Source: a virus
Lineage: Duplodnaviria; Caudoviricetes
Direction: 5' to 3' (one strand)
IMG/VR virus record: IMGVR_UViG_3300028797_000128
Coordinates: 32,001 to 96,000 of that record
Length of the DNA stretch: 64,000 nt
A model generated the notes under the pieces. That model did no database searches and was not told the origin of the DNA. It saw only the letters and a program-made list of their open reading frames with translations. The first letter of the stretch is position 1; every line of letters begins with the position of its first letter. This document shows positions 3,192-26,296 of this stretch, piece after piece. The translations under genes were made by a program, and so were the position numbers.

Positions 3192-3262
3192 GATTCAGCG
3201 GGCTTGTGACCGCCTCCGGCTGCATTACCGCGGGAAAAATCCCGCGTCACTCTGCATTGAAA
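3192..3262 (-). ncRNA. Twister self-cleaving ribozyme, circularly permuted (type P5-like)
   Basis: Minus strand reads GCAGAGUGA-CGCGGGA(UUU)UUCCCGCG-GUAAUGCAGC-CGGAG-GCGGUCACAAGCCCGC: twister core elements UAAUGCAGC, GGUCACAAGCCC and GCAGAGUGA with GUGA/UCAC pseudoknot. Confidence 0.88.
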
Positions 3263-8218: not shown

Positions 8219-9316
8219 ATGTTTAGAGCTTACAAGATGAGAATATTCCCAACAGAAGAACAAAAAACATTGATAACAAAGACTTTTGGTTGCTGCCGTT
8301 GGTACTGGAATCAGGCATTGCATGACAATATAGAATATTACAAAGAAAACGGCAAGGGCAAAATAACAACTCCCGCAAAATATAAAGCGGAGAATGAATG
8401 GTTAAAAGAAGTGGATGCTGTTGCATTGTGTTGTACTCAAATGGATCTGCAATCGGCTTTCTCTAAGTTTTTCAAAAAACCAAATGTTGGATTCCCTAAA
8501 TACAAATCTAAGAAAAGACCTAAGAACAGCTACAAAACAACTCAAACACGAGGATTTGTTGTTGGAGATGATTATGTAAAGCTTACGAAATTAGGTAAGG
8601 TTAAACTTATAAATCATCGTCACAAAACTGGAACGTGTAAATCGGCTACGATATCACTCACATCAAGTGGCAAATACTATGTGTCTTGTTTATTCGAGGA
8701 AGATATTGACTTTCTGTCAGAGACAAACAAGGAAGTTGGGATTGACTTAGGTCTTGCAGATTTGGCAATTTGCTCCGACGGCACTAAGTTTCCTGTGCTT
8801 AGGGCGTTGCGTAAGAATTTAGCAAAACTAAAGAGAGAACAACGTAAACTTAGTAAAATGACTTTCGGTAGCAATTGCTATCTAAAACAAAAACAAAGAG
8901 TAGCAGAATTGCATGAGCATATAGCAAATCAGCGCAAAGATTATTTACATAAGGTAAGCCACAAACTCATAAACGAGAACCAAGTTGTGTGTTTGGAGGA
9001 CTTAAATGTAAAGGGTTTGCTCAAGAATCATCATCTGGCTCTATCAATATCTGACGTTGGCTGGTCTAAATTTGTATCAATGCTACAGTACAAGGCAGAT
9101 TGGTATGGCAGAACAGTACAGAAGATAGGGCGATTCTATCCGAGTAGTCAGATATGCAGTAGTTGTGGTTGCGTAACAGGTAAGAAACCATTGCATATTC
9201 GAGAGTGGGTTTGCCCTGAGTGTGGAGCAAAACACGACAGAGATGTAAACGCAGCTAAGAATATACTGCAAGAAGGTAAAAGAATTTTGGCGGCAAGCAC
9301 TTGTCGTGACAGGTAG
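8219..9316 (+). CDS. tnpB: RNA-guided endonuclease TnpB
   Basis: N-terminal HTH (TFGCCRWYWN), RuvC GIDLG / CLEDL / HDRDVNAA, zinc finger CSSCG..CPECG. Confidence 0.96.
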   Translation: MFRAYKMRIFPTEEQKTLITKTFGCCRWYWNQALHDNIEYYKENGKGKITTPAKYKAENEWLKEVDAVALCCTQMDLQSAFSKFFKKPNVGFPKYKSKKRPKNSYKTTQTRGFVVGDDYVKLTKLGKVKLINHRHKTGTCKSATISLTSSGKYYVSCLFEEDIDFLSETNKEVGIDLGLADLAICSDGTKFPVLRALRKNLAKLKREQRKLSKMTFGSNCYLKQKQRVAELHEHIANQRKDYLHKVSHKLINENQVVCLEDLNVKGLLKNHHLALSISDVGWSKFVSMLQYKADWYGRTVQKIGRFYPSSQICSSCGCVTGKKPLHIREWVCPECGAKHDRDVNAAKNILQEGKRILAASTCRDR

Positions 9317-9434
9317 TTTATGCTTTCGGATAAGTTGTGTCAGCCTATAAATGGCACAACGAAGCCGAATCGAGCTACAAGCCCGTTGGCTTTAGGCGAC
9401 GGGTAGTTGACATTCTTTAATTGAGGTGGATGAT

Positions 9435-9668
9435 ATGTATTATAATGGCAAATGGTACGAGGAATGTGAAATGTCAGCTTATGTGCGACAATTGGAACAA
9501 GAACGTGATGCCTATAAGGAAGAATTAAAAGACTGGCTGCGTAAGGCTTGTGAATGTATCGAGGGCAACGATTTCGACTGCTCAATATGTACATTTTATG
9601 GTTCTGTAAAGTGTCCAAGCAAAGTCAACACTTATGATGCAAAGCTCAGACTGGAGGAGTTACGATGA
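9435..9668 (+). CDS. Hypothetical Cys-containing protein
   Basis: ORF track, GAGGTG RBS. Confidence 0.7.
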   Translation: MYYNGKWYEECEMSAYVRQLEQERDAYKEELKDWLRKACECIEGNDFDCSICTFYGSVKCPSKVNTYDAKLRLEELR

Positions 9669-9793
9669 AACTGAGAGAACTACTTAAAGGCAAAGGTCAG
9701 ACACGCATCAAGGAATATGAGCAGTATGGAGATCAACTCATATTTGTAGGTGGTGGTTTCTATGACGGCAGACGCATACTTCCTCTTGATTAG
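9665..9793 (+). CDS. Small ORF (MKLRELLKGK...ILPLD) hit at its 3' end by IS element 2
   Basis: GGAGG RBS; stop codon TAG supplied by the first bases of the element. Confidence 0.55.
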   Translation: MKLRELLKGKGQTRIKEYEQYGDQLIFVGGGFYDGRRILPLD

Positions 9794-11086
9794 AATTTCG
9801 GCGCGTACTCGTGACTTTAGTCGTGAGTTAGCCGAAACAATATCTCAAATAAGACAATACATACAAAATCAGAAAGAGAGGTGATATTATGGAGAAAGCG
9901 TATAAGTTTAGGTTATATCCTAATAAGGAGCAACAGATTCTTTTGGCAAAGACTTTTGGTTGCGCACGCTTTGTTTATAATTATTATCTCGACAAAAGGA
10001 TAACTGCTTATAAAACTGATAAAACTACATTAAGTGCTTACGATTGTATAAGAGATTTGACTTCTTTAAAGAAAGAGTATGAATGGCTTAAAGAACCTGA
10101 TAAGTGTGCATTGCAGAATACGCTAAAAGATTTGGATAGTGCATACAAAGGATTCTTTAAGTCGGGCAAAGGCTTTCCCAAGTTTAAATCAAAGAAAACA
10201 CATAGATATTCATATAGAACTTCTTATACAAATAACAATATACAATTCTTAGGTAACTCAATCAAACTACCTAAACTTGGTAAGGTTAAAATCAGAGATA
10301 AGCAGATTCCACAGGGTAGGATTCTTAATGCTACAATATCTCAAACACCTTCTGGTAAATACTATTGTTCATTATGTTGTACAGATGTAACAGTAGAACC
10401 TTTTGAAAAGACTGGAAGTGTAGTTGGTATTGACTTAGGTATTAAAGAATTTGCAATAACGTCTGATAATGAACACATTGAAAATCCTAAATATTTAGCA
10501 AAATCTTTAAAGAAACTCGCTCGGTTACAACGTCAACTTTCTCGAAAAACAAGAGGTAGTAATCGTTGGAATAAGGCAAGAATAAAGGTTGCTAAGTGTC
10601 AGGAACAAATTGCAAATCAAAGAACAGACTTCTTACACAAACTATCTACAAGACTTGTAAAGGAATATGATGTTATTAGTCTTGAAGATTTAAATGTAAG
10701 CGGTATGCTTAAAAATCATAAACTTGCAAGAAGTGTTTCTGATGTGTCGTGGTCGCAGTTTACTACTATGTTGCAATACAAAGCTAATTGGTACGGCAAG
10801 GATATTATCAAAATAGATAGATTCTTTGCGAGTAGCCAGTTATGCAATGTGTGTGGCTATAAGAACACTGAGACTAAGGATTTAAGTGTTAGGTCGTGGG
10901 TGTGTCCTAACTGTGGCACTTCACATGACAGAGATGTTAATGCTTCAATAAATATATTGAACGAAGGACTAAGGCAAATAGTCTAACATATGTAAAGCGG
11001 TAGGAACTATCGTGTTAGCTCGTGGAGAAAGTAGGTTACGAAATCTATGAAGCGAGAACCCTACGACTTTAGTCGTGGGAGGTTCA
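9791..11086 (+). mobile_element. tnpB-only IS200/IS605 (IS1341-type) element 2
   Basis: Preceded by TTGAT; left and right subterminal hairpins share GACTTTAGTCGTG (9808-9827, 11060-11079); ends GGTTCA. Confidence 0.88.
9889..10986 (+). CDS. tnpB: RNA-guided endonuclease TnpB
   Basis: [17 protein letters not shown] / SLEDL / HDRDVNA catalytic D-E-D, CNVCG..CPNCG zinc finger. Confidence 0.97.
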
Positions 11087-13046: not shown

Positions 13047-13426
13047 ATATTGTCAGGCTCGATCAGGAATTGCAAAGTCTTAACGAGCAGCGTAATCGCT
13101 TAATGGCATTGCACTCTATGATAACGGATGTAGATTTGTGTAGCCACAAAGCTCACACCTATAAGATATTTAACATCTCATGGATAGATGATGTTACAGG
13201 CGAAAGACAAGAGTACGATTTGTTTATTGCCGATAATAAAAATGCAAACGCTAAAGCCTTGCGGACTTTGGCAACAATTGAGATAGCTGAAATCAAACCT
13301 TCTCTCAATGATGATATTGAGAGATTCAAATTGAGAAGTCATATGATGACTAAAGAGCAGAAGCAAGTCTCTAATGAGATTGAAAGAGAAGTTGAAACTA
13401 TGGGAGAGACAAGTGTTCATTTCTGA
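12962..13426 (+). CDS. Membrane-anchored coiled-coil hypothetical protein
   Basis: N-terminal TM segment; GGGGTG RBS. Confidence 0.7.
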   Translation: MGTLIFYIILFGGGYKLYKWFQIRKRGINIVRLDQELQSLNEQRNRLMALHSMITDVDLCSHKAHTYKIFNISWIDDVTGERQEYDLFIADNKNANAKALRTLATIEIAEIKPSLNDDIERFKLRSHMMTKEQKQVSNEIEREVETMGETSVHF

Positions 13427-13520
13427 CCTCTCCCCTGCCGGGTTTAGGGTAGCGATTGTGCCTTTGCGGTAGATTAATCTATAAATTTTTAACCGCTATT
13501 GACGAAAGGGGAGATAAAAA

Positions 13521-13829
13521 ATGCAATGTAAGGATATTAAATATTGTGAGATGTGTGGAAAGAAAATAAGTGATATCAACGATCCTAATACGGACTGGAT
13601 GTCTCATATAAGAATTAAATATTGTCCTGAGTGTGCTGCTTATAGGAGAAAGATGAATAAACGGAATTGGGCTTCTAAAAATACCGATGCTCATAAGACG
13701 GTTGAAGCGTTTCTCGGAGAGTATTCTGCTCTGATGAGAGAGCAGATATCGGAACTGAAAGAACAGGTTGAGTTGGTTAAGTCTGAGAATGATTTGCTTA
13801 GAAAACAGATAATTAGTCTTAGAGAGTAA
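13521..13829 (+). CDS. Zinc-finger/coiled-coil protein
   Basis: CEMCG...CPECA plus leucine-rich coiled coil. Confidence 0.8.
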   Translation: MQCKDIKYCEMCGKKISDINDPNTDWMSHIRIKYCPECAAYRRKMNKRNWASKNTDAHKTVEAFLGEYSALMREQISELKEQVELVKSENDLLRKQIISLRE

Positions 13830-19690: not shown

Positions 19691-20659
19691 TTGAAGAAAT
19701 TCACGACTGAGCAATACTGTCGTATCTTCGAGGTTTGCAATAGTAAGCCAAAGGATAGGACTTGGGACGATGTAGCGATACAACTCAATTCTGAGTTCAA
19801 TAGTGATGTAAGTTCCAGTGCATATAGGAAGTGTTACCAATATTATACTTTAATGAATAACGCTCTCAAAGCAAAAGGTGATACCTCTGTAGCAACTCGC
19901 ATACTTAGCATATCGGACACACACGTTCCTTTTGAACTGCCGATAGAGATGTTATCAGCCTATAAAGGCAGAGTTGATATACTTCAACTTAATGGCGACA
20001 TCTGTGATTGTCAGGCTATTTCAAAATTCAATAAGGTTTATCGTGTGTCCCCTATGGAAGAAATTATTAAGGCTCGTAAATATGTGATTGATATGATTGA
20101 ATATTTGCAACCCAAGAAAGTGGTTGTAACATACGGCAATCACGATCTGCGCTTTCAGAACTACATAGCTAAAAATCTTGACAATGAAATGGCTGAGCTT
20201 ATGCCGAGAACAAGTCTTGAATTAATCTTTGTAGACGGTTTCTTTCATTATGATAAAAGAGAAGGGACTAAATCTTGGTATACTCCTATAAAAGAACTGT
20301 TCCCCACTATTGAGATTGACTATACCGATGATTGGTGGGTACAGATTGGCGACACAATATTTGCTCATCCGTCAGCATTTTCATCGGGAGTTCTCAAGAC
20401 TGCGGAAAAAGCGATGTATTTCTTCAGGAATGAAGGTATGCAGTTTATGGAACTCGTAATGGCTCATACTCATAGAGTTGGTGAGTATTACATCGGTAAC
20501 ACAAGAATAATTGAACAGGGTGCGTTTAGTGACGTATCTAAGAACAATTATAATAACGGTCAGCTTTATAATTCTCAGAAAGAGGGTTTTGTGTATCTGT
20601 GTCAGGATATAAACGGCAAAACTATGCGTGAGAAAACAGAGTTGGTCGCACTGAATTAA
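19691..20659 (+). CDS. Calcineurin-like metallophosphoesterase (YonJ-like)
   Basis: SDTH, NGDICD, GNHD, AHTH motifs. Confidence 0.9.
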   Translation: MKKFTTEQYCRIFEVCNSKPKDRTWDDVAIQLNSEFNSDVSSSAYRKCYQYYTLMNNALKAKGDTSVATRILSISDTHVPFELPIEMLSAYKGRVDILQLNGDICDCQAISKFNKVYRVSPMEEIIKARKYVIDMIEYLQPKKVVVTYGNHDLRFQNYIAKNLDNEMAELMPRTSLELIFVDGFFHYDKREGTKSWYTPIKELFPTIEIDYTDDWWVQIGDTIFAHPSAFSSGVLKTAEKAMYFFRNEGMQFMELVMAHTHRVGEYYIGNTRIIEQGAFSDVSKNNYNNGQLYNSQKEGFVYLCQDINGKTMREKTELVALN

Positions 20660-20748
20660 GCAAGATTGGTCTTTCTGTGTGAAAGATAAGTAGAATTACA
20701 GGGTTGTCCCCTATCTACGCCTTTCTATTTTAAAGGAAAGAGGATAAT

Positions 20749-21495
20749 ATGTCTTGTGGAATTTATTGTATTGAAAACAAAGTGAATGGCAAAAGGTATG
20801 TTGGGTTAAGTCGTAATATTGAAATCAGATGGAAATCACATAAAAACAGACTTAATTCAGGAAATCATATTAATACTCATTTACAAGCGGCTTGGAATAA
20901 ATATGGTGAAAGTAATTTTGATTTTATTATTATAGAATTATGTTCCGATGATGTCATAAAAGATAGGGAAATTTATTATATTTCTTTATACAAAACGCAA
21001 GATAATCGTTTCGGATATAATCAAACCGCTGGCGGTGATGGTATAAAAAATTTAAATGAGGATTGTGCAGACAAAATTTCTTTAGGCGAAACACTTTACC
21101 CAGTGGTTAAATTAGATTTTGATGGCAACTACATATGCGAATATAGAAATTGTAGATTTGCAGCGGAAGATACTGGATTGTTTACTGAAAATATAAGATA
21201 TTGTTGCGATAAAAAAGGTAAACGCAAAACTACTGGTGGATATATTTGGATGTATAAATCTGATTATGAACAAAACGGGTGCGATGTAGAATACTATAAA
21301 ATTTTAAAAAGAGGAACGCCTGTTAGTCAATTTACAAAAGACGGGCAATATATTGCAACATACATATCAATGCATGAAGCGGAAAGACAAACAGGATGTC
21401 CATTTAAAAACATATCTGCGGTTTGTAATGGGACAAAACATACTTGCATGGGGTATGTATGGAAATTCGCAGATGAAAGCATACTATTAAATTGA
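20749..21495 (+). CDS. GIY-YIG homing endonuclease with NUMOD1-like repeats
   Basis: GIYCIEN...YVGLS; two C-terminal repeats ending GGYIW / MGYVW; AT-rich. Confidence 0.9.
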   Translation: MSCGIYCIENKVNGKRYVGLSRNIEIRWKSHKNRLNSGNHINTHLQAAWNKYGESNFDFIIIELCSDDVIKDREIYYISLYKTQDNRFGYNQTAGGDGIKNLNEDCADKISLGETLYPVVKLDFDGNYICEYRNCRFAAEDTGLFTENIRYCCDKKGKRKTTGGYIWMYKSDYEQNGCDVEYYKILKRGTPVSQFTKDGQYIATYISMHEAERQTGCPFKNISAVCNGTKHTCMGYVWKFADESILLN

Positions 21496-21940: not shown

Positions 21941-22315
21941 TATATAGTCGCAAGTCGGCTTATAATTCTCGCCTAAAGCTGTGGCGAGTAACTAAATGAC
22001 GGAACGGGGCATAGATTAAGCCCCGTATGTGGAAAGCAACTGCAATGATGTTGTAATCTGCACCAAAGCAAATCTCGGAGAACAACTTCACGGTTAAACT
22101 GTTGTCGCAAAATCCGAGGTTTTATGTACCTACCACGCCTCTGTTGTAAGCGTACCACGGTGGGTCTTTAAGACAAAGCTCTTTACGAGCACTTATTAGG
22201 AAAGAGTTTTCAAGCATCTCTTGCATTGTGGTGTCTGTGCGCACAGGTATCGCTTTGATTTTCGTGCTTGAATGCTGCGCATTATGGGATTTAGAGCACA
22301 ATCTAAACTTGCGCA
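21941..22315 (+). ncRNA. Candidate large structured noncoding RNA
   Basis: ~370 nt with no credible ORF and many nested inverted repeats, directly upstream of a tRNA. Confidence 0.55.
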
Positions 22316-22319
22316 TTAT

Positions 22320-22393
22320 GGCAGTTTGGTGAAATGGTATCATATAAGGTTCATACCCTTATGTTCCAAGTTCGACTCTTGGGGCTGCAACCA
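22320..22393 (+). tRNA. tRNA with CAT anticodon (Met/fMet or Ile2)
   Basis: Cloverleaf: D arm GTGA/TCAT, anticodon arm TAAGG-TTCATAC-CCTTA, T arm CCAAG-TTCGACT-CTTGG, encoded CCA. Confidence 0.9.
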
Positions 22394-22419
22394 AGCGTAT
22401 CTTCAACGCTATAAGCATT

Positions 22420-22519
22420 AAAGGCAGATAGAGAGAACCGATCATTCTCTTGACAAGTGTCACCATTCACTTCTGCCTTTACAAGTTTAAAATGGTGAGA
22501 TTGGAAATGGTGCATATGA
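22420..22519 (+). promoter_or_regulatory. Three-way-junction leader with anti-SD loop (copy C)
   Basis: P1 AAAGGCAG/CTGCCTTT; loop TCACCATT complementary to AATGGTGA (22491) and AATGGTG (22506). Confidence 0.65.
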
Positions 22520-23410
22520 ATGTTAGATGTGAGGACACAAGATGTTACGATTATAAGTAATTCTACGGGTGAAGATATTACGGAGCAGTATGCGTTGTTA
22601 ATGACGCAAGATGAGAAAGAAAGAAAAGATAAACAACAAAAAGAAAGAGATAAAAAGACTTATAAAAGATTATGCCAAAACGAAAGAGGGTATTTTACTA
22701 TGATGCTCTACGAGATGAAAAAGGCTTTGGAATTAGGTGTTTCTCAACCGAATGTGACACGATTAATGTATCTCGCAACATACATGGATTATGATAATAT
22801 TTTAAGAGCTGGAAATAATACCTTGATGACTAAAAGAAGTATGCAAAAATGTTTGAGATTAAAAGAAGATACTTTTAGAAACTTTTATAAGGATTGTATA
22901 GATGCAAAACTTATTCAATACAAAGAAGATAAGTATTTTTTGAATCAGTCTATTTTCAAGCGTGGTCGTATAACGCAAGAACAAGCTAAGAACGACAACA
23001 CAATGTTCTTGTATCATAAAGGCATTAGAGAAATTTACGAGAATAGCAAGATTTCAGAGCATAAGATTTTAGGCTATGTATTCTTAGTAATGCCTTATGT
23101 TAATCAAACTTTCAACGTCATTTGTAAAAACCCTAAAGAGGAATCATTTCAAGAAATGGAATGTTTAGATTGGAATGATGTTGGAGATATACTTCAAATA
23201 AATGCTATTCGTAATTTAAAAATGAAATTCAAAAGATTCACTGTTGGTGGACAATATGTTTTTGTTGACGCATCTACTGATAGTAAATCCTTTATATTTG
23301 TGAATCCTCAAATTTATTATACTGGCAAAAATTGGGAACAGGTAGAATGGATAGAAGGGGTTTGTTCTTCGTCTCAGTTGGAACGGAAGGGCGAAATTCA
23401 CAGCACATAA
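22520..23410 (+). CDS. Putative winged-helix DNA-binding protein (RepL-like)
   Basis: Two repeats ending YFLNQSIF / IFVNPQIYY; family assignment is from recall only. Confidence 0.5.
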   Translation: MLDVRTQDVTIISNSTGEDITEQYALLMTQDEKERKDKQQKERDKKTYKRLCQNERGYFTMMLYEMKKALELGVSQPNVTRLMYLATYMDYDNILRAGNNTLMTKRSMQKCLRLKEDTFRNFYKDCIDAKLIQYKEDKYFLNQSIFKRGRITQEQAKNDNTMFLYHKGIREIYENSKISEHKILGYVFLVMPYVNQTFNVICKNPKEESFQEMECLDWNDVGDILQINAIRNLKMKFKRFTVGGQYVFVDASTDSKSFIFVNPQIYYTGKNWEQVEWIEGVCSSSQLERKGEIHST

Positions 23411-23524
23411 GCTATACGTTGATATATAGGCAAATACAAAGATTTTTGCAAACCGAAAAAAGTCAACATAATGACATACTTTTTCGGAAAATAATTAACA
23501 AAACGAGCGTAAGGAGATGATTGA

Positions 23525-24553
23525 ATGGAAGGCAGATCGACGGTCTATAATAAGATTACAAGTGATGAAAAGATTAAGCAGATCAACCCCGAAAACGCTC
23601 AGTTGAGCAAAGACTTTCTTGATTACCTTGCTTCAATTGACAGAAGTCCTAAGACTATTTTTGCATATAATTCTGACCTTGAAATATTCTTTGTTTGGAA
23701 CTTAGAAGAAAATGCCAACAAGGATTTTATAAAGATTAGTAAACGTGACTTTGCGAGATTTCAGAATCACGCTCTCAATGTGTGGAAATGGAGTCCTCGT
23801 AGGATAAGGCGAGTTAAATCTACAATTTCTTCTCTTAGCAACTATATCATGAATATGCTCGACGAAGAAGAAGGGTATGAAGATTATCGCAGTATTATTA
23901 AGAAGATTGAATCTCCCGCAAATGAGGCTGTTAGAGAAAAGACTGTGCTTTCTACAGAACAGGTGCAGAGGTTGCTTGATGAACTTGTAAAGCGTGAAGA
24001 ATACGATAGAGCTGTTTGTATTGCAATTCTCGCTTATTCGGGTATGCGTAAGGCGGAACTGCTTCAAATGAAAATGGAATACTTTAACGCAGACCACTTA
24101 GAGTTTGGCTGCCTTTATAAAACAGATAAGGTGAGAGCCAAAGGTTGTGGTGTGCGCGGCAAACAGATAAACAAGTATGTAATGAATAAAGTTGATACCT
24201 ATATGGATTTATGGCGCAAGAAGCGTGAAGAATTAGGTATTGACAGCGAGTGGGTTCTTGTTATAAAGCGTGGTGACGTTTGGGAGCAGAGAACGGATAT
24301 TGAGAGTTGGAAAGATGAGTTTACTCAGATTCTCGGTTGCCCGTTCTATTTTCATGCCCTTAGGCACGCATTGTGTACTGAGCTTGTTCAAATGAACATA
24401 CCGTCAGAAGTTATAAAAGAATTTTTCAAATGGGAGTCTGTAGAAATGATTAGCCATTACAATGATGCTTCTGCGGCTGATGACTTTGGTAAATACTTTA
24501 GTGCAGATGGCATTATACAGCAAGAAAATAAGGGTATTGCTGATATAAAATAG
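23525..24553 (+). CDS. Tyrosine recombinase
   Basis: YSGMRKAEL (R), HALRH, C-terminal HY (catalytic Tyr). Confidence 0.93.
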   Translation: MEGRSTVYNKITSDEKIKQINPENAQLSKDFLDYLASIDRSPKTIFAYNSDLEIFFVWNLEENANKDFIKISKRDFARFQNHALNVWKWSPRRIRRVKSTISSLSNYIMNMLDEEEGYEDYRSIIKKIESPANEAVREKTVLSTEQVQRLLDELVKREEYDRAVCIAILAYSGMRKAELLQMKMEYFNADHLEFGCLYKTDKVRAKGCGVRGKQINKYVMNKVDTYMDLWRKKREELGIDSEWVLVIKRGDVWEQRTDIESWKDEFTQILGCPFYFHALRHALCTELVQMNIPSEVIKEFFKWESVEMISHYNDASAADDFGKYFSADGIIQQENKGIADIK

Positions 24554-24597
24554 AACCCACATTTTATTAGAAATCTACAAATCATATATTCCTCCTT

Positions 24598-24618
24598 GCC
24601 CTCTTTGAGAGGGCTTTT
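24598..24618 (+). terminator. Intrinsic terminator
   Basis: GCCCTCT-TTG-AGAGGGC-TTTT. Confidence 0.7.
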
Positions 24619-24677
24619 GTGTTGTCTGACTGCGATGATGTTGGACGGCGCACCAATACTATGAAAAGAGGAAAGAT

Positions 24678-24869
24678 ATGCCAATATATAATTATGTTTG
24701 CCCAAACTGCGATAATAAGTTTGAGACAGACAAGAAAATAAGTGAGTATAATCCTCATGAATTATGCCCTAAATGTGGAGAACCTGCAAATAGGAATATG
24801 ACCAAGAACTATTGCAATGGCAACTACGTTGTGAAATGCGATGGGTTCTATGGAAAAACATCAAAGTGA
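24678..24869 (+). CDS. FmdB-family zinc-ribbon protein
   Basis: MPIYNYVCPNC...CPKCG...GFY. Confidence 0.88.
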   Translation: MPIYNYVCPNCDNKFETDKKISEYNPHELCPKCGEPANRNMTKNYCNGNYVVKCDGFYGKTSK

Positions 24870-24973
24870 ATAACAATATATGGGAGTAGCTACCCATATA
24901 TGAGGGCGGTTTTCTATCCTGCCGCCCTCTGTTATTTATAAATATAAAAGAAGGATAGAGAGAGGATAGAACA
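24869..24973 (+). promoter_or_regulatory. Three-way-junction leader with anti-SD loop (copy D)
   Basis: P1 AATAACA/TGTTATT, P2 ATATATGGG/CCCATATAT, P3 GAGGGCGG/CCGCCCTC; loop TTCTATCCT complementary to AGGATAGA at 24952 and 24963. Confidence 0.7.
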
Positions 24974-26296
24974 ATGTTAATTACGACAGAAGTCCAAGTG
25001 GTAGTAGCCAGTCGCACTCTATATTTTTATCGTAATCTTGGCTACGATTGTAAGATAGGCGACACAATTACCGTCCCGGTAGAAAAGACTCATAATGGGT
25101 GTAACGAGAAGATTTGGTATAAATGTGACATTTGCAATAAGCAAAAACAAGTATCATTAAAATCGTTTAAGGCAACGCGGGGTTTCGATGAACCTATGTA
25201 TTGCGTAGAATGCGCAAATCTTTTACGGTGTGGCAAGTCAATTGATGATATTCGGGAATATATTAGTTTAAAAGCAAGAGATGGATATAGAATATGCAAA
25301 AAATGTAACAGAGAATTACCTCTTGATATAAAATATTTCAATCCCGATGTAATGTGTGCAGACGGTTTACGGTTTGTTTGCAGAGAATGTTCTGGTGATC
25401 CATTCAAAACACATGAAGATGATTGGAGTAGAGAGTGGACTGATGATGAATTGTCCTTGCTTAAACAACATTACGCAGATTGCACCACTAAAGAATTACA
25501 GGAGAAATTCTTTCCAGATAGAAGCATTCGTGGAATCCGATGTATGGGAAACAAATTGCATATTGCAAAAAGTGAAATAGCTAAAACCAAAAGCAATGAA
25601 AGCAGAGCAAATCTATGTCGGGAGGCATTTACTGGTAGAAAATTAAGTGATTCAGCAAAAGAAAAATTGTCTGTTAAAGCAAGGGAAAGGTATGAAAAAT
25701 ATGGGAGTCCATTAAAGGGTAGACCTTTTACTTTGACTCACAAACAAAACATAAGTAAAGGGCTTAAAGAGTCTGGAAGATGGAAGGGCGAAAATAACCC
25801 TCGTTATGCTAATCCTTTATGCGGAAAAGACAACCCTAATTGGAAGGGTGGTTTAACGCCATTATATCAAGAATTGAGAAGTGACACGAGAGATTGGTTT
25901 GTCGAATCTGGAGAATTGTCGAATTTTAAATGTGTTATAAGCGGATTAAAATTAGACAATGTTCATCACTTGATACCGTTTAAAGATATTGTAAAAGAGG
26001 TCTTTGATGTTTTAAATCTTGAATTTAAAGACAGTATTGCTGATTATACCGCCACTGAAGAAAGTCAAATAAGAAATCTTCTAAAAGAACTACATATACA
26101 ATATGGATTAGGAGTAGGACTGAATAAGGAGGTTCACAAATTATTTCATGATAATTATGGGTATAGCAATGTCACTAAAGAGGATTTTAAATCTTTTTTG
26201 ATTGGAATACAAAACGGTGTGTATGATGAATATTTTGCGGAACATAATTTGCCTATTATGTTAAACGTGTCTGCGATAGACGTATTATTAAATTAA
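24974..26296 (+). CDS. HNH-type homing endonuclease with zinc-finger and NUMOD3-like repeats
   Basis: Multiple CxxC, HKQNISKGLK / GENNP / GKDNPNWKGG, C-terminal VHHL...HKLFHDNYG. Confidence 0.8.
   Translation: MLITTEVQVVVASRTLYFYRNLGYDCKIGDTITVPVEKTHNGCNEKIWYKCDICNKQKQVSLKSFKATRGFDEPMYCVECANLLRCGKSIDDIREYISLKARDGYRICKKCNRELPLDIKYFNPDVMCADGLRFVCRECSGDPFKTHEDDWSREWTDDELSLLKQHYADCTTKELQEKFFPDRSIRGIRCMGNKLHIAKSEIAKTKSNESRANLCREAFTGRKLSDSAKEKLSVKARERYEKYGSPLKGRPFTLTHKQNISKGLKESGRWKGENNPRYANPLCGKDNPNWKGGLTPLYQELRSDTRDWFVESGELSNFKCVISGLKLDNVHHLIPFKDIVKEVFDVLNLEFKDSIADYTATEESQIRNLLKELHIQYGLGVGLNKEVHKLFHDNYGYSNVTKEDFKSFLIGIQNGVYDEYFAEHNLPIMLNVSAIDVLLN

What the first reader, a model, noticed from the sequence alone, without database searches (positions are those of the whole stretch)
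22420..24973. Three-way-junction leaders whose loop pairs with a duplicated ribosome-binding site
Seen: two leaders unrelated in sequence share one architecture, a closing stem P1 plus hairpins P2 and P3. The P3 loop is complementary to a sequence present twice just before the start codon. Copy C (22420-22519): loop TCACCATT vs AATGGTGA (22491) and AATGGTG (22506). Copy D (24869-24973): loop TTCTATCCT vs AGGATAGA (24952, 24963). A third candidate (20660-20748) has TTGTCC able to pair with GGATAA in the RBS of the GIY-YIG gene. All precede homing-endonuclease or DNA-binding accessory genes. Known: phage T4 homing endonucleases are repressed by simple SD-occluding hairpins. Inference: a more elaborate translational switch in which the loop pairs with either the upstream decoy copy (ON) or the real SD copy (OFF), travelling with mobile endonuclease genes. 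This is possibly an undescribed cis-regulatory RNA class.
Basis: partly seen in the sequence, partly recalled or inferred. Interest (0 to 1): 0.8.

Follow-up and report, generated by a model that had tools for sequence, protein, structure and literature searches.

The report
Loop-to-ribosome-site RNA leader of phage endonucleases
Two short folded RNA leaders in this rumen phage belong to a widespread, apparently undescribed family that sits in front of selfish endonuclease genes in phages of Bacillota, and whose hairpin loop always matches two small boxes at the ribosome-binding site, most likely to hold translation of these risky enzymes down.

Summary
Leaders C (22419-22519) and D (24864-24973) are confirmed. 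The third candidate (20660-20748) is not.

Both leaders fold as P1-P2-P3 three-way junctions. In each, the P3 loop is complementary to two boxes just before the start codon. Relatives settle the question of chance. I found 10 loop variants of C and D, and about 44 further distinct leaders of the C type in IMG/VR. Two cultured phages carry it too: Sporosarcina phage Lietuvens and Clostridium phage vB_CpeS-1181. The loop and both boxes change together:
- Cognate loop/tail duplex -10.5 kcal/mol against -6.6±0.35 permuted, 0 of 20000 permutations.
- Second box, p=9e-11.

P1, P2 and P3 covary, and G-U pairs point to plus-strand RNA. A -10 promoter box usually lies just upstream of P1, so the junction probably starts the mRNA.

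The downstream genes are swapped directly after box 2. They are mostly free-standing homing endonucleases (HNH, GIY-YIG, LAGLIDADG, PD-(D/E)xK), plus TnpB, integrases and a RepL-like protein.

There is no Rfam match, and I found no paper on the motif.

The most likely role is translational damping: a loop-to-SD pseudoknot or kissing pair, with box 1 as a competing site. The pairing is shown by covariation. The regulatory direction and the switch logic are inferred.

The parts
22419..22481 (+). Leader C core: three-way junction P1 (22419-22428/22472-22481), P2 (22431-22437/22445-22451), P3 (22456-22459/22468-22471). It carries the conserved junction motifs GAUAG and UGACAAG.
   Evidence: Fold. 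Covariance model R1 scores it 106.7 bits. Helices covary in 28 relatives.
22460..22467 (+). P3 loop of leader C (anti-SD-like, 8 nt).
   Evidence: Complementary to both boxes at -10.1 and -7.9 kcal/mol. The loop changes together with the boxes in L085, L068/L101, L064 and L056.
22491..22498 (+). Box 1 of leader C (upstream copy, perfect 8-nt complement of the loop).
22506..22512 (+). Box 2 of leader C, overlapping the weak SD (GGUG) 7 nt before the start codon at 22520.
   Evidence: The N-terminus from 22520 is conserved in homologues.
22520..23410 (+). o296, the gene served by leader C. It is a RepL-like winged-helix DNA-binding protein (a lead only).
   Evidence: PHROG 9501, unknown function. 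Atlas look-alikes are RepL/HTH clusters of Bacillota. Absent from some relatives (joints).
24866..24939 (+). Leader D core: three-way junction P1 (24866-24875/24930-24939), P2 (24876-24884/24893-24901, apex conserved in all 5 variants), P3 (24902-24910/24921-24929).
   Evidence: MFE z -4.46. Model R2 scores it 113 bits. Compensatory changes are seen in P1, P2 and P3 among L060, L061, L062, L065 and L085.
24911..24920 (+). P3 loop of leader D.
   Evidence: Pairs with box 1 at -12.6 and box 2 at -11.6 kcal/mol. There are five loop variants, each matched by its own boxes.
24952..24959 (+). Box 1 of leader D.
24963..24970 (+). Box 2 of leader D, which is the SD of o440 (start 24974).
24974..26296 (+). 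o440, a homing-endonuclease-like gene served by leader D. It is an insertion relative to the closest relatives.
   Evidence: In L005-L008 the zinc-ribbon gene is followed directly by the o368 homologue. PHROG 5104 and weak homing-endonuclease hits. Its C-terminal half is shared with the L061 gene.
22320..22393 (+). tRNA-Met ending in CCA, 25 nt upstream of leader C. It may define the 5' end of the leader by processing.
   Evidence: Other members follow tRNA-like minihelices ending in ACCA, or a -10 box.

Best explanation
Leaders C and D are cis-acting 5' leader RNAs of one superfamily. A three-way junction (P1 closing stem, P2, P3) sits at or near the 5' end of the mRNA. The pyrimidine-rich P3 loop base-pairs with a purine-rich box that overlaps the Shine-Dalgarno sequence (box 2). 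It can also pair with a second copy 9-14 nt upstream (box 1). In many members box 2 is presented in the loop of a small tail hairpin, so the contact would be a loop-loop kiss. In C and D it would be an H-type pseudoknot.

Pairing with box 2 hides the SD from the 30S subunit and keeps translation of the downstream gene low. That gene is a homing endonuclease, TnpB, integrase or replication-type DNA-binding protein. Box 1 competes for the same loop, and so sets or switches the fraction of open messages.

Shown: the structure, and both pairings, by covariation.
Inferred: repression rather than activation, the role of box 1, and any trigger.
For: 1. Ten loop variants of C and D each fit their own tail best (cognate best or tied in 10 of 10). 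Both boxes are complementary in 13 of 15 members.
2. In the wider family there are 33 distinct P3 apices. The cognate duplex is -10.5 against -6.6±0.35 kcal/mol for permuted pairings, 0 of 20000.
3. The second site scores -7.5 against -4.1 kcal/mol, p=9e-11. Box 2 lies at about -19 to -7 from the start codon.
4. Nested helices: 87.9% of cells paired, covariation 0.655 against 0.20 for shuffles and at most 0.13 for slid partners. All 8 P1 pairs show compensatory changes.
5. G-U pairs in P2, P3 and in the loop-box helices fit only the plus-strand RNA.
6. A -10 box ends 3-12 nt before P1 in 19 of 33 members, against 3 of 33 in a control. L068 and L101 have a perfect -35/-10 pair.
7. The tails are otherwise open, and box 2 is usually a good SD, so pairing can only reduce access.
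8. The downstream genes are endonucleases of several unrelated folds. SD occlusion is documented for T4 homing endonucleases, which the review suggests may need stringent regulation if toxic (PMC2988022).
Against: - No expression or probing data; the one read-mapping call returned only DNA contigs.
- In isolation leader C is no more stable than shuffled sequence.
- Loops of 8-11 nt cannot be fully paired in a compact pseudoknot, so only part of the complementarity can form at once.
- Which box pairs better differs by family: box 1 in C, box 2 in D.
- L040 and L041 have lost box 2 and use a distant SD.
- The strongly conserved junction motifs and P2 apex are not explained by simple occlusion.
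Confidence: 0.55

Rival explanations
1. The loop-box pairing activates translation rather than repressing it. This is how the pseudoknot next to the repZ/repA ribosome-binding site of IncI-alpha/IncB plasmids works (my own knowledge of that system, not checked in a paper here).
For: The geometry is the same: a hairpin loop pairs next to the RBS. One served gene is RepL-like. The SDs of C and D are weak.
Against: There is no conserved leader peptide or upstream ORF (tails). The antisense promoter-like site at D is not kept in other variants. The tails are unstructured without the pairing, so there is nothing to open. Many members have strong GGAGG-type box 2 sequences.
Confidence: 0.1
2. The element is mainly an mRNA 5'-end module. 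The 5'-terminal junction would block 5'-dependent RNases, and box 1 would act as a ribosome-binding stabiliser like the STAB-SD of Bacillus cryIIIA mRNA (my own knowledge). The loop-box pairing would be secondary.
For: P1 begins 3-12 nt after a -10 box in 19 of 33 members. In others it lies directly after a tRNA or a tRNA-like helix ending in ACCA. Box 1 is SD-like but too far from the start codon to serve it.
Against: This does not explain why the loop covaries with both boxes. It is compatible with the main reading as an added function.
Confidence: 0.15
3. It is a factor-responsive switch. A host or phage protein, or a small ligand, would bind the conserved junction (GAUAG, UGAYAAG) and P2 apex, and would decide whether the P3 loop is free to pair with box 1 or box 2.
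For: Junction strands and a 14-nt P2 apex are invariant across 27 aligned leaders, while all stems vary. P2 apical loops carry 6-nt palindromes in four loop types. The architecture resembles the preQ1-II riboswitch, with a sub-threshold hit.
Against: C1/C2 and D lack the common P2 apex, and D lacks the junction strands, yet they keep the loop-box pairing. The gene context is not metabolic. The preQ1-II score is far below its threshold (22.4 against 47 bits).
Confidence: 0.15
4. It is a DNA-level element: a recombination, insertion or operator site for cassette exchange. The repeats would be protein-binding sites rather than RNA partners.
For: Genes are exchanged exactly after box 2. An integrase lies between C and D. 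P2 is a near-palindrome.
Against: Strand-specific G-U pairs, and compensatory changes in three nested helices plus the loop-box helices. Box 2 has a fixed distance to start codons. Members occur in phages with no integrase nearby.
Confidence: 0.04
5. It is a chance resemblance: an ordinary terminator of the upstream gene followed by an ordinary RBS.
For: P3 of D is GC-rich and followed by a U-rich stretch. Plain terminators elsewhere score weakly with model R2. There is no enrichment within this genome.
Against: The comparative statistics. P3 of C and of variant D5 is not terminator-like.
Confidence: 0.01

Closest known systems
RBS-sequestering hairpins of T-even phage homing-endonuclease genes (I-TevI, I-TevII, I-TevIII, segB, mobE); review PMC2988022
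   Same: A cis RNA structure upstream of a phage homing-endonuclease gene that involves the SD. The presumed purpose is to limit translation of the endonuclease.
   Different: In T4 the SD lies inside a simple local stem, and it is freed on transcripts from an internal late promoter. Here the family is conserved. It has a three-way junction, a loop-to-SD pseudoknot or kissing pair, a second target box, and a promoter upstream of the whole structure. It occurs in Bacillota phages and in front of several nuclease folds.
preQ1-II riboswitch (Rfam RF01054)
   Same: The SD is sequestered by a pseudoknot with a loop, in a fold with an embedded extra hairpin. It is the only Rfam model with a sub-threshold hit on a family member.
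   Different: The score is 22.4 bits against a gathering score of 47. The pairing nucleotides here vary freely. There is no queuosine gene context, and no evidence of a ligand.
Pseudoknot next to the repZ/repA RBS of IncI-alpha and IncB plasmids (own knowledge)
   Same: A hairpin loop pairs with a sequence next to the RBS of a gene for a DNA-acting protein.
   Different: That pseudoknot activates translation. It depends on a leader peptide and is blocked by an antisense RNA. None of these features is conserved here.
STAB-SD mRNA stabilisers of Bacillus (cryIIIA; own knowledge)
   Same: An SD-like box upstream of the real SD, not used for initiation, near the 5' end of a Bacillota mRNA.
   Different: STAB-SD acts by binding the ribosome. 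It is not known to pair with an intramolecular loop.

Membership tests
T4-type HEG RBS-occluding hairpin | The SD lies within the stem of a local hairpin. | tested here: not met
   In C and D the tail is unpaired in the MFE. In 20 of 33 relatives the SD sits in a hairpin loop, not in a stem.
T4-type HEG RBS-occluding hairpin | An internal (late) promoter gives transcripts that lack the 5' arm. | tested here: not met
   The sigma-70-type -10 box lies upstream of P1 in 19 of 33 members. No conserved promoter was found inside the structure. Promoters of the phage's own polymerase could not be tested.
T4-type HEG RBS-occluding hairpin | Lies directly upstream of a phage homing-endonuclease gene. 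| tested here: met
   HNH, GIY-YIG, LAGLIDADG and PD-(D/E)xK-type genes lie downstream.
Any Rfam 15 family | Covariance-model score at or above the gathering threshold. | tested here: not met
   Window: only a tRNA and a twister-P5 ribozyme. Nothing on the leaders at E up to 5, apart from noise. Ten relatives' loci gave only tRNAs.
preQ1-II riboswitch | Score at or above 47 bits, and a queuosine-related gene context. | tested here: not met
   22.4 bits, E 0.11, on L136. The downstream genes are endonucleases.
Intrinsic terminator | A GC-rich stem directly followed by a U tract, in all members. | tested here: not met
   The scan does not call P3 of C or D on the plus strand. P3 of C is 4-5 bp, and variant D5 is followed by a non-U-rich strand.
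New leader family defined here (models R1 and R2) | P1-P2-P3 junction, a P3 loop complementary to two boxes before the start codon, and a position 5' of a gene. | tested here: met
   C scores 106.7 bits with R1 and D scores 113 bits with R2 (both were training sequences). Independent members score 31-71 bits. Boxes are shown.
IncI-alpha/IncB activator pseudoknot | A leader peptide coupled to the pseudoknot, and an antisense RNA that targets the loop. | tested here: not met
   No conserved upstream ORF (tails). The minus-strand promoter-like site at D is absent from the other variants.

The most novel reading that the evidence does not exclude
This would be a new, widespread class of bistable leader RNA. 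It would be carried as a portable promoter-plus-leader unit that many unrelated selfish nucleases of Bacillota phages plug into. A conserved junction and a palindromic P2 apex would sense a factor, or dimerise. That would decide whether the P3 loop holds the decoy box (ON) or the SD box (OFF), timing endonuclease production during infection.
Probability: 0.25. Interest if true: 0.9.

Novelty: new variant of a known kind. Interest (0 to 1): 0.78.

Why it matters
How free-standing homing endonucleases are kept harmless to their own phage, yet active against competitors, has been studied almost only in T4-like phages.

This is a conserved, covariation-supported leader shared by HNH, GIY-YIG, LAGLIDADG and PD-(D/E)xK endonuclease genes, and by TnpB, integrase and Rep-like genes, in many Bacillota phages. 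It gives a common, testable control point.

It also supplies a compact natural part (promoter, junction, programmable loop-SD pair) of the kind used in synthetic riboregulators. It marks mobile-gene slots in phage genomes, and it adds a family that current RNA annotation misses.

It occurs in two cultured phages, so experiments are possible.

Tried and rejected
- The protein-based locus search for o296 found nothing useful.
- The GenBank phage search with the whole region found nothing.
- The genome contigs pattern scan gave only chance hits in unrelated phyla.
- The recurrent hairpin motif seen next to some D leaders is absent from the window.
- Genome-wide loop/SD complementarity in this phage is not enriched, so the claim rests on comparison, not on this genome.
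- Hits of model R2 near position 20350-20680 of many loci are plain terminators.
- MAFFT alone misaligned P3 and P1 of the large family. I used the model-fitted alignment instead, which leans towards the structure.
- The read mapping gave only DNA contigs. It gave no transcript ends and no full variant leader.
- Readings considered and dropped: group I intron fragment (no room after o440, no Rfam intron hit); integron attC-like site (no R-box motifs); small ribozyme (the conserved core is not universal); CsrA sites (this does not explain the covariation).
- No structure prediction or complex prediction was run.

Full report
**Context**

The window is bases 32001-96000 of a 106-kb IMG/VR phage record rated complete. 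Sequencing runs place it in the bovine gut.

Gene order around the finding:
- beta-CASP nuclease
- metallophosphoesterase
- GIY-YIG endonuclease (20749-21495)
- o140
- a 380-nt gene-free stretch
- tRNA-Met (22320-22393)
- leader C
- o296 (22520-23410)
- tyrosine integrase (23525-24553)
- a 63-aa zinc-ribbon gene
- leader D
- o440 (24974-26296)
- o368 and the large terminase

**Observation**

Leader D folds as the described three-way junction, and this fold is the minimum-energy structure. It is far more stable than shuffled sequence (z -4.46).

Leader C folds the same way when the core is folded alone. The full stretch, however, is no more stable than shuffles (z -0.38).

Within this genome alone they are not statistically remarkable. 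Over 103 gene starts, cognate and non-cognate loop/SD pairings score alike.

The third candidate, upstream of the GIY-YIG gene, lies within that chance range. Neither covariance model hits it, and no homologue was found.

**Leader D in relatives**

The closest relatives by terminase (L005-L008) have the zinc-ribbon gene directly followed by the o368 homologue. So o440 is an insertion.

Pattern scans and a covariance model found leader D in eight other contigs, in five variants.
- The P2 apex is constant.
- P1, the P2 stem and P3 change by compensatory or wobble steps.
- The P3 loop differs in each variant, and in each variant the boxes differ to match it. Each loop fits its own tail best.

Several pairs are G-U, which would be C-A on the other strand. 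This points to plus-strand RNA.

The gene after the leader differs between contigs that have the same leader. These genes are o440-type, a 378-aa zinc-finger/PD-(D/E)xK-like protein, and a 304-aa protein. The break point lies within a few bases after box 2.

**Leader C in relatives**

A pattern built from P1 and the junction found true homologues.
- L087 has the same loop but a different gene.
- L085 has a new loop and new boxes, followed by a TnpB-like gene.
- L068 and L101 have another loop and other boxes, with two different genes. They also have a perfect -35/-10 promoter that ends a few bases before P1.

The covariance model added L064, and a distant group (L040, L041, L053, L056) in front of integrase-like genes. 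In that group one P2 apex resembles that of leader D, which links the two families.

Each genome holds at most one C and one D. Where both occur, C lies about 2.4 kb upstream of D.

**The wider family**

A last scan used the P2 apex shared by most C-type members, plus the junction motif. It returned 77 loci and about 50 distinct leaders from many samples. Of these, 44 fold as the same junction.

Statistics:
- Among 33 distinct P3 apices, the cognate loop/tail duplex averages -10.5 kcal/mol, against -6.6±0.35 for permuted pairings (0 of 20000).
- A second, non-overlapping site is also specific: -7.5 against -4.1 kcal/mol, p=9e-11.
- Box 2 lies at about -19 to -7 from the start codon. Box 1 lies at about -43 to -20.
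- On a model-fitted alignment of 28 members, 87.9% of cells pair. The covariation score is 0.655, against 0.20 for shuffles and at most 0.13 for slid partners. All eight P1 pairs show compensatory changes. This alignment leans towards the structure, so the numbers are upper estimates.
- A -10 box ends 3-12 nt before P1 in 19 of 33 members, against 3 of 33 in a control. Other members follow a tRNA or a tRNA-like helix ending in ACCA.
- In 20 of 33 members, box 2 sits in the loop of a small tail hairpin, which suggests a loop-loop kiss. C and D lack that hairpin.

**Genes served**

Of 33 downstream proteins, most carry domains of these families:
- HNH
- GIY-YIG
- LAGLIDADG
- DUF4379/CapR zinc-finger
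- DUF559, Vsr or MTES_1575

The others are antirepressors and an integrase.

In the window, o296 looks RepL-like, which is a lead only. o440 is endonuclease-like.

The leader also occurs in two cultured phages:
- Sporosarcina phage Lietuvens, between the terminase gene and an annotated HNH endonuclease gene.
- Clostridium phage vB_CpeS-1181, between two terminase fragments.

**Known or new**

No Rfam 15 family reaches its threshold on the window or on ten relatives. The best sub-threshold hit is preQ1-II, at 22.4 of 47 bits.

Four full-text searches found no description of the motif.

The nearest known thing is the SD-occluding hairpin of T4 homing-endonuclease genes (PMC2988022). It differs in structure and in promoter logic.

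**Mechanism**

The pairing of the P3 loop with both boxes is shown by covariation. That this hides the SD and damps translation is inferred from three things: the position of box 2, the otherwise open tails, and the nature of the genes.

The role of box 1 is open. It could be a decoy, a standby site or a stabiliser. So is the role of the conserved junction and the palindromic P2 apex. The rivals are listed with their tests.

**Earlier notes of this scan**

Earlier notes on this genome made the same observation from another window. They also described the tRNA-like units upstream.

Noticed in passing
window 22391-24583; also 21992-22318 and 22069-23520: Contigs from other cattle-gut runs join 22390/22394 to 24584, skipping leader C, o296 and the integrase. 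Others join 22068 to 23521, or 21991 to 22319. This region is therefore a patchwork of indels among close relatives.
   Followed up: partly
window 22394-22418; L085, L087, L060, L061, L062 and L065 just upstream of their leaders: Leaders are often directly preceded by a tRNA, or by a short tRNA-like helix ending in ACCA. This suggests that the 5' end of the leader may be made by tRNA-type processing.
   Followed up: partly
P2 loops: window 22438-22444 and 24885-24892; relatives: P2 apical loops contain palindromes: three different 6-nt ones in relatives and in D, and a 4-nt one in C. This hints at kissing dimers or at a DNA-level site.
   Followed up: no
window 13425-13520: Upstream of the small zinc-ribbon gene at 13521, a 9-nt pyrimidine run pairs at long range with the SD region. 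This is the only other gene start in the genome at -13 kcal/mol or lower. The overall fold is not significant (z -0.14).
   Followed up: partly
L085:10440-10543 (-) and downstream: A leader C variant sits directly in front of a TnpB-like gene (370 aa), not a classical homing endonuclease.
   Followed up: no
L031-L058 group, locus positions about 8677-10001: The large terminase gene of many relatives is interrupted by about 1.3 kb. In Clostridium phage vB_CpeS-1181 the two terminase fragments flank a leader plus an ORF (L204).
   Followed up: no
window 3198-3256 (-): A twister-P5 ribozyme at 64 bits, well above the Rfam threshold.
   Followed up: no
window 22129-22165: A sub-threshold abiF RNA match (28.1 of 37 bits) in the gene-free stretch before the tRNA.
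   Followed up: no
L146:6230-6328 (-) and 9882-9985 (-): One contig carries two leaders of the family. One of them precedes a GIY-YIG gene whose N-terminus looks, by eye, like that of the window's GIY-YIG gene at 20749, which has no such leader.
   Followed up: no
L065:74-1099: An integrase 91% identical to the window's lies in a phage whose terminase is only about 20% identical. The integrase and leader D region therefore appears to move between distant phages.
   Followed up: no
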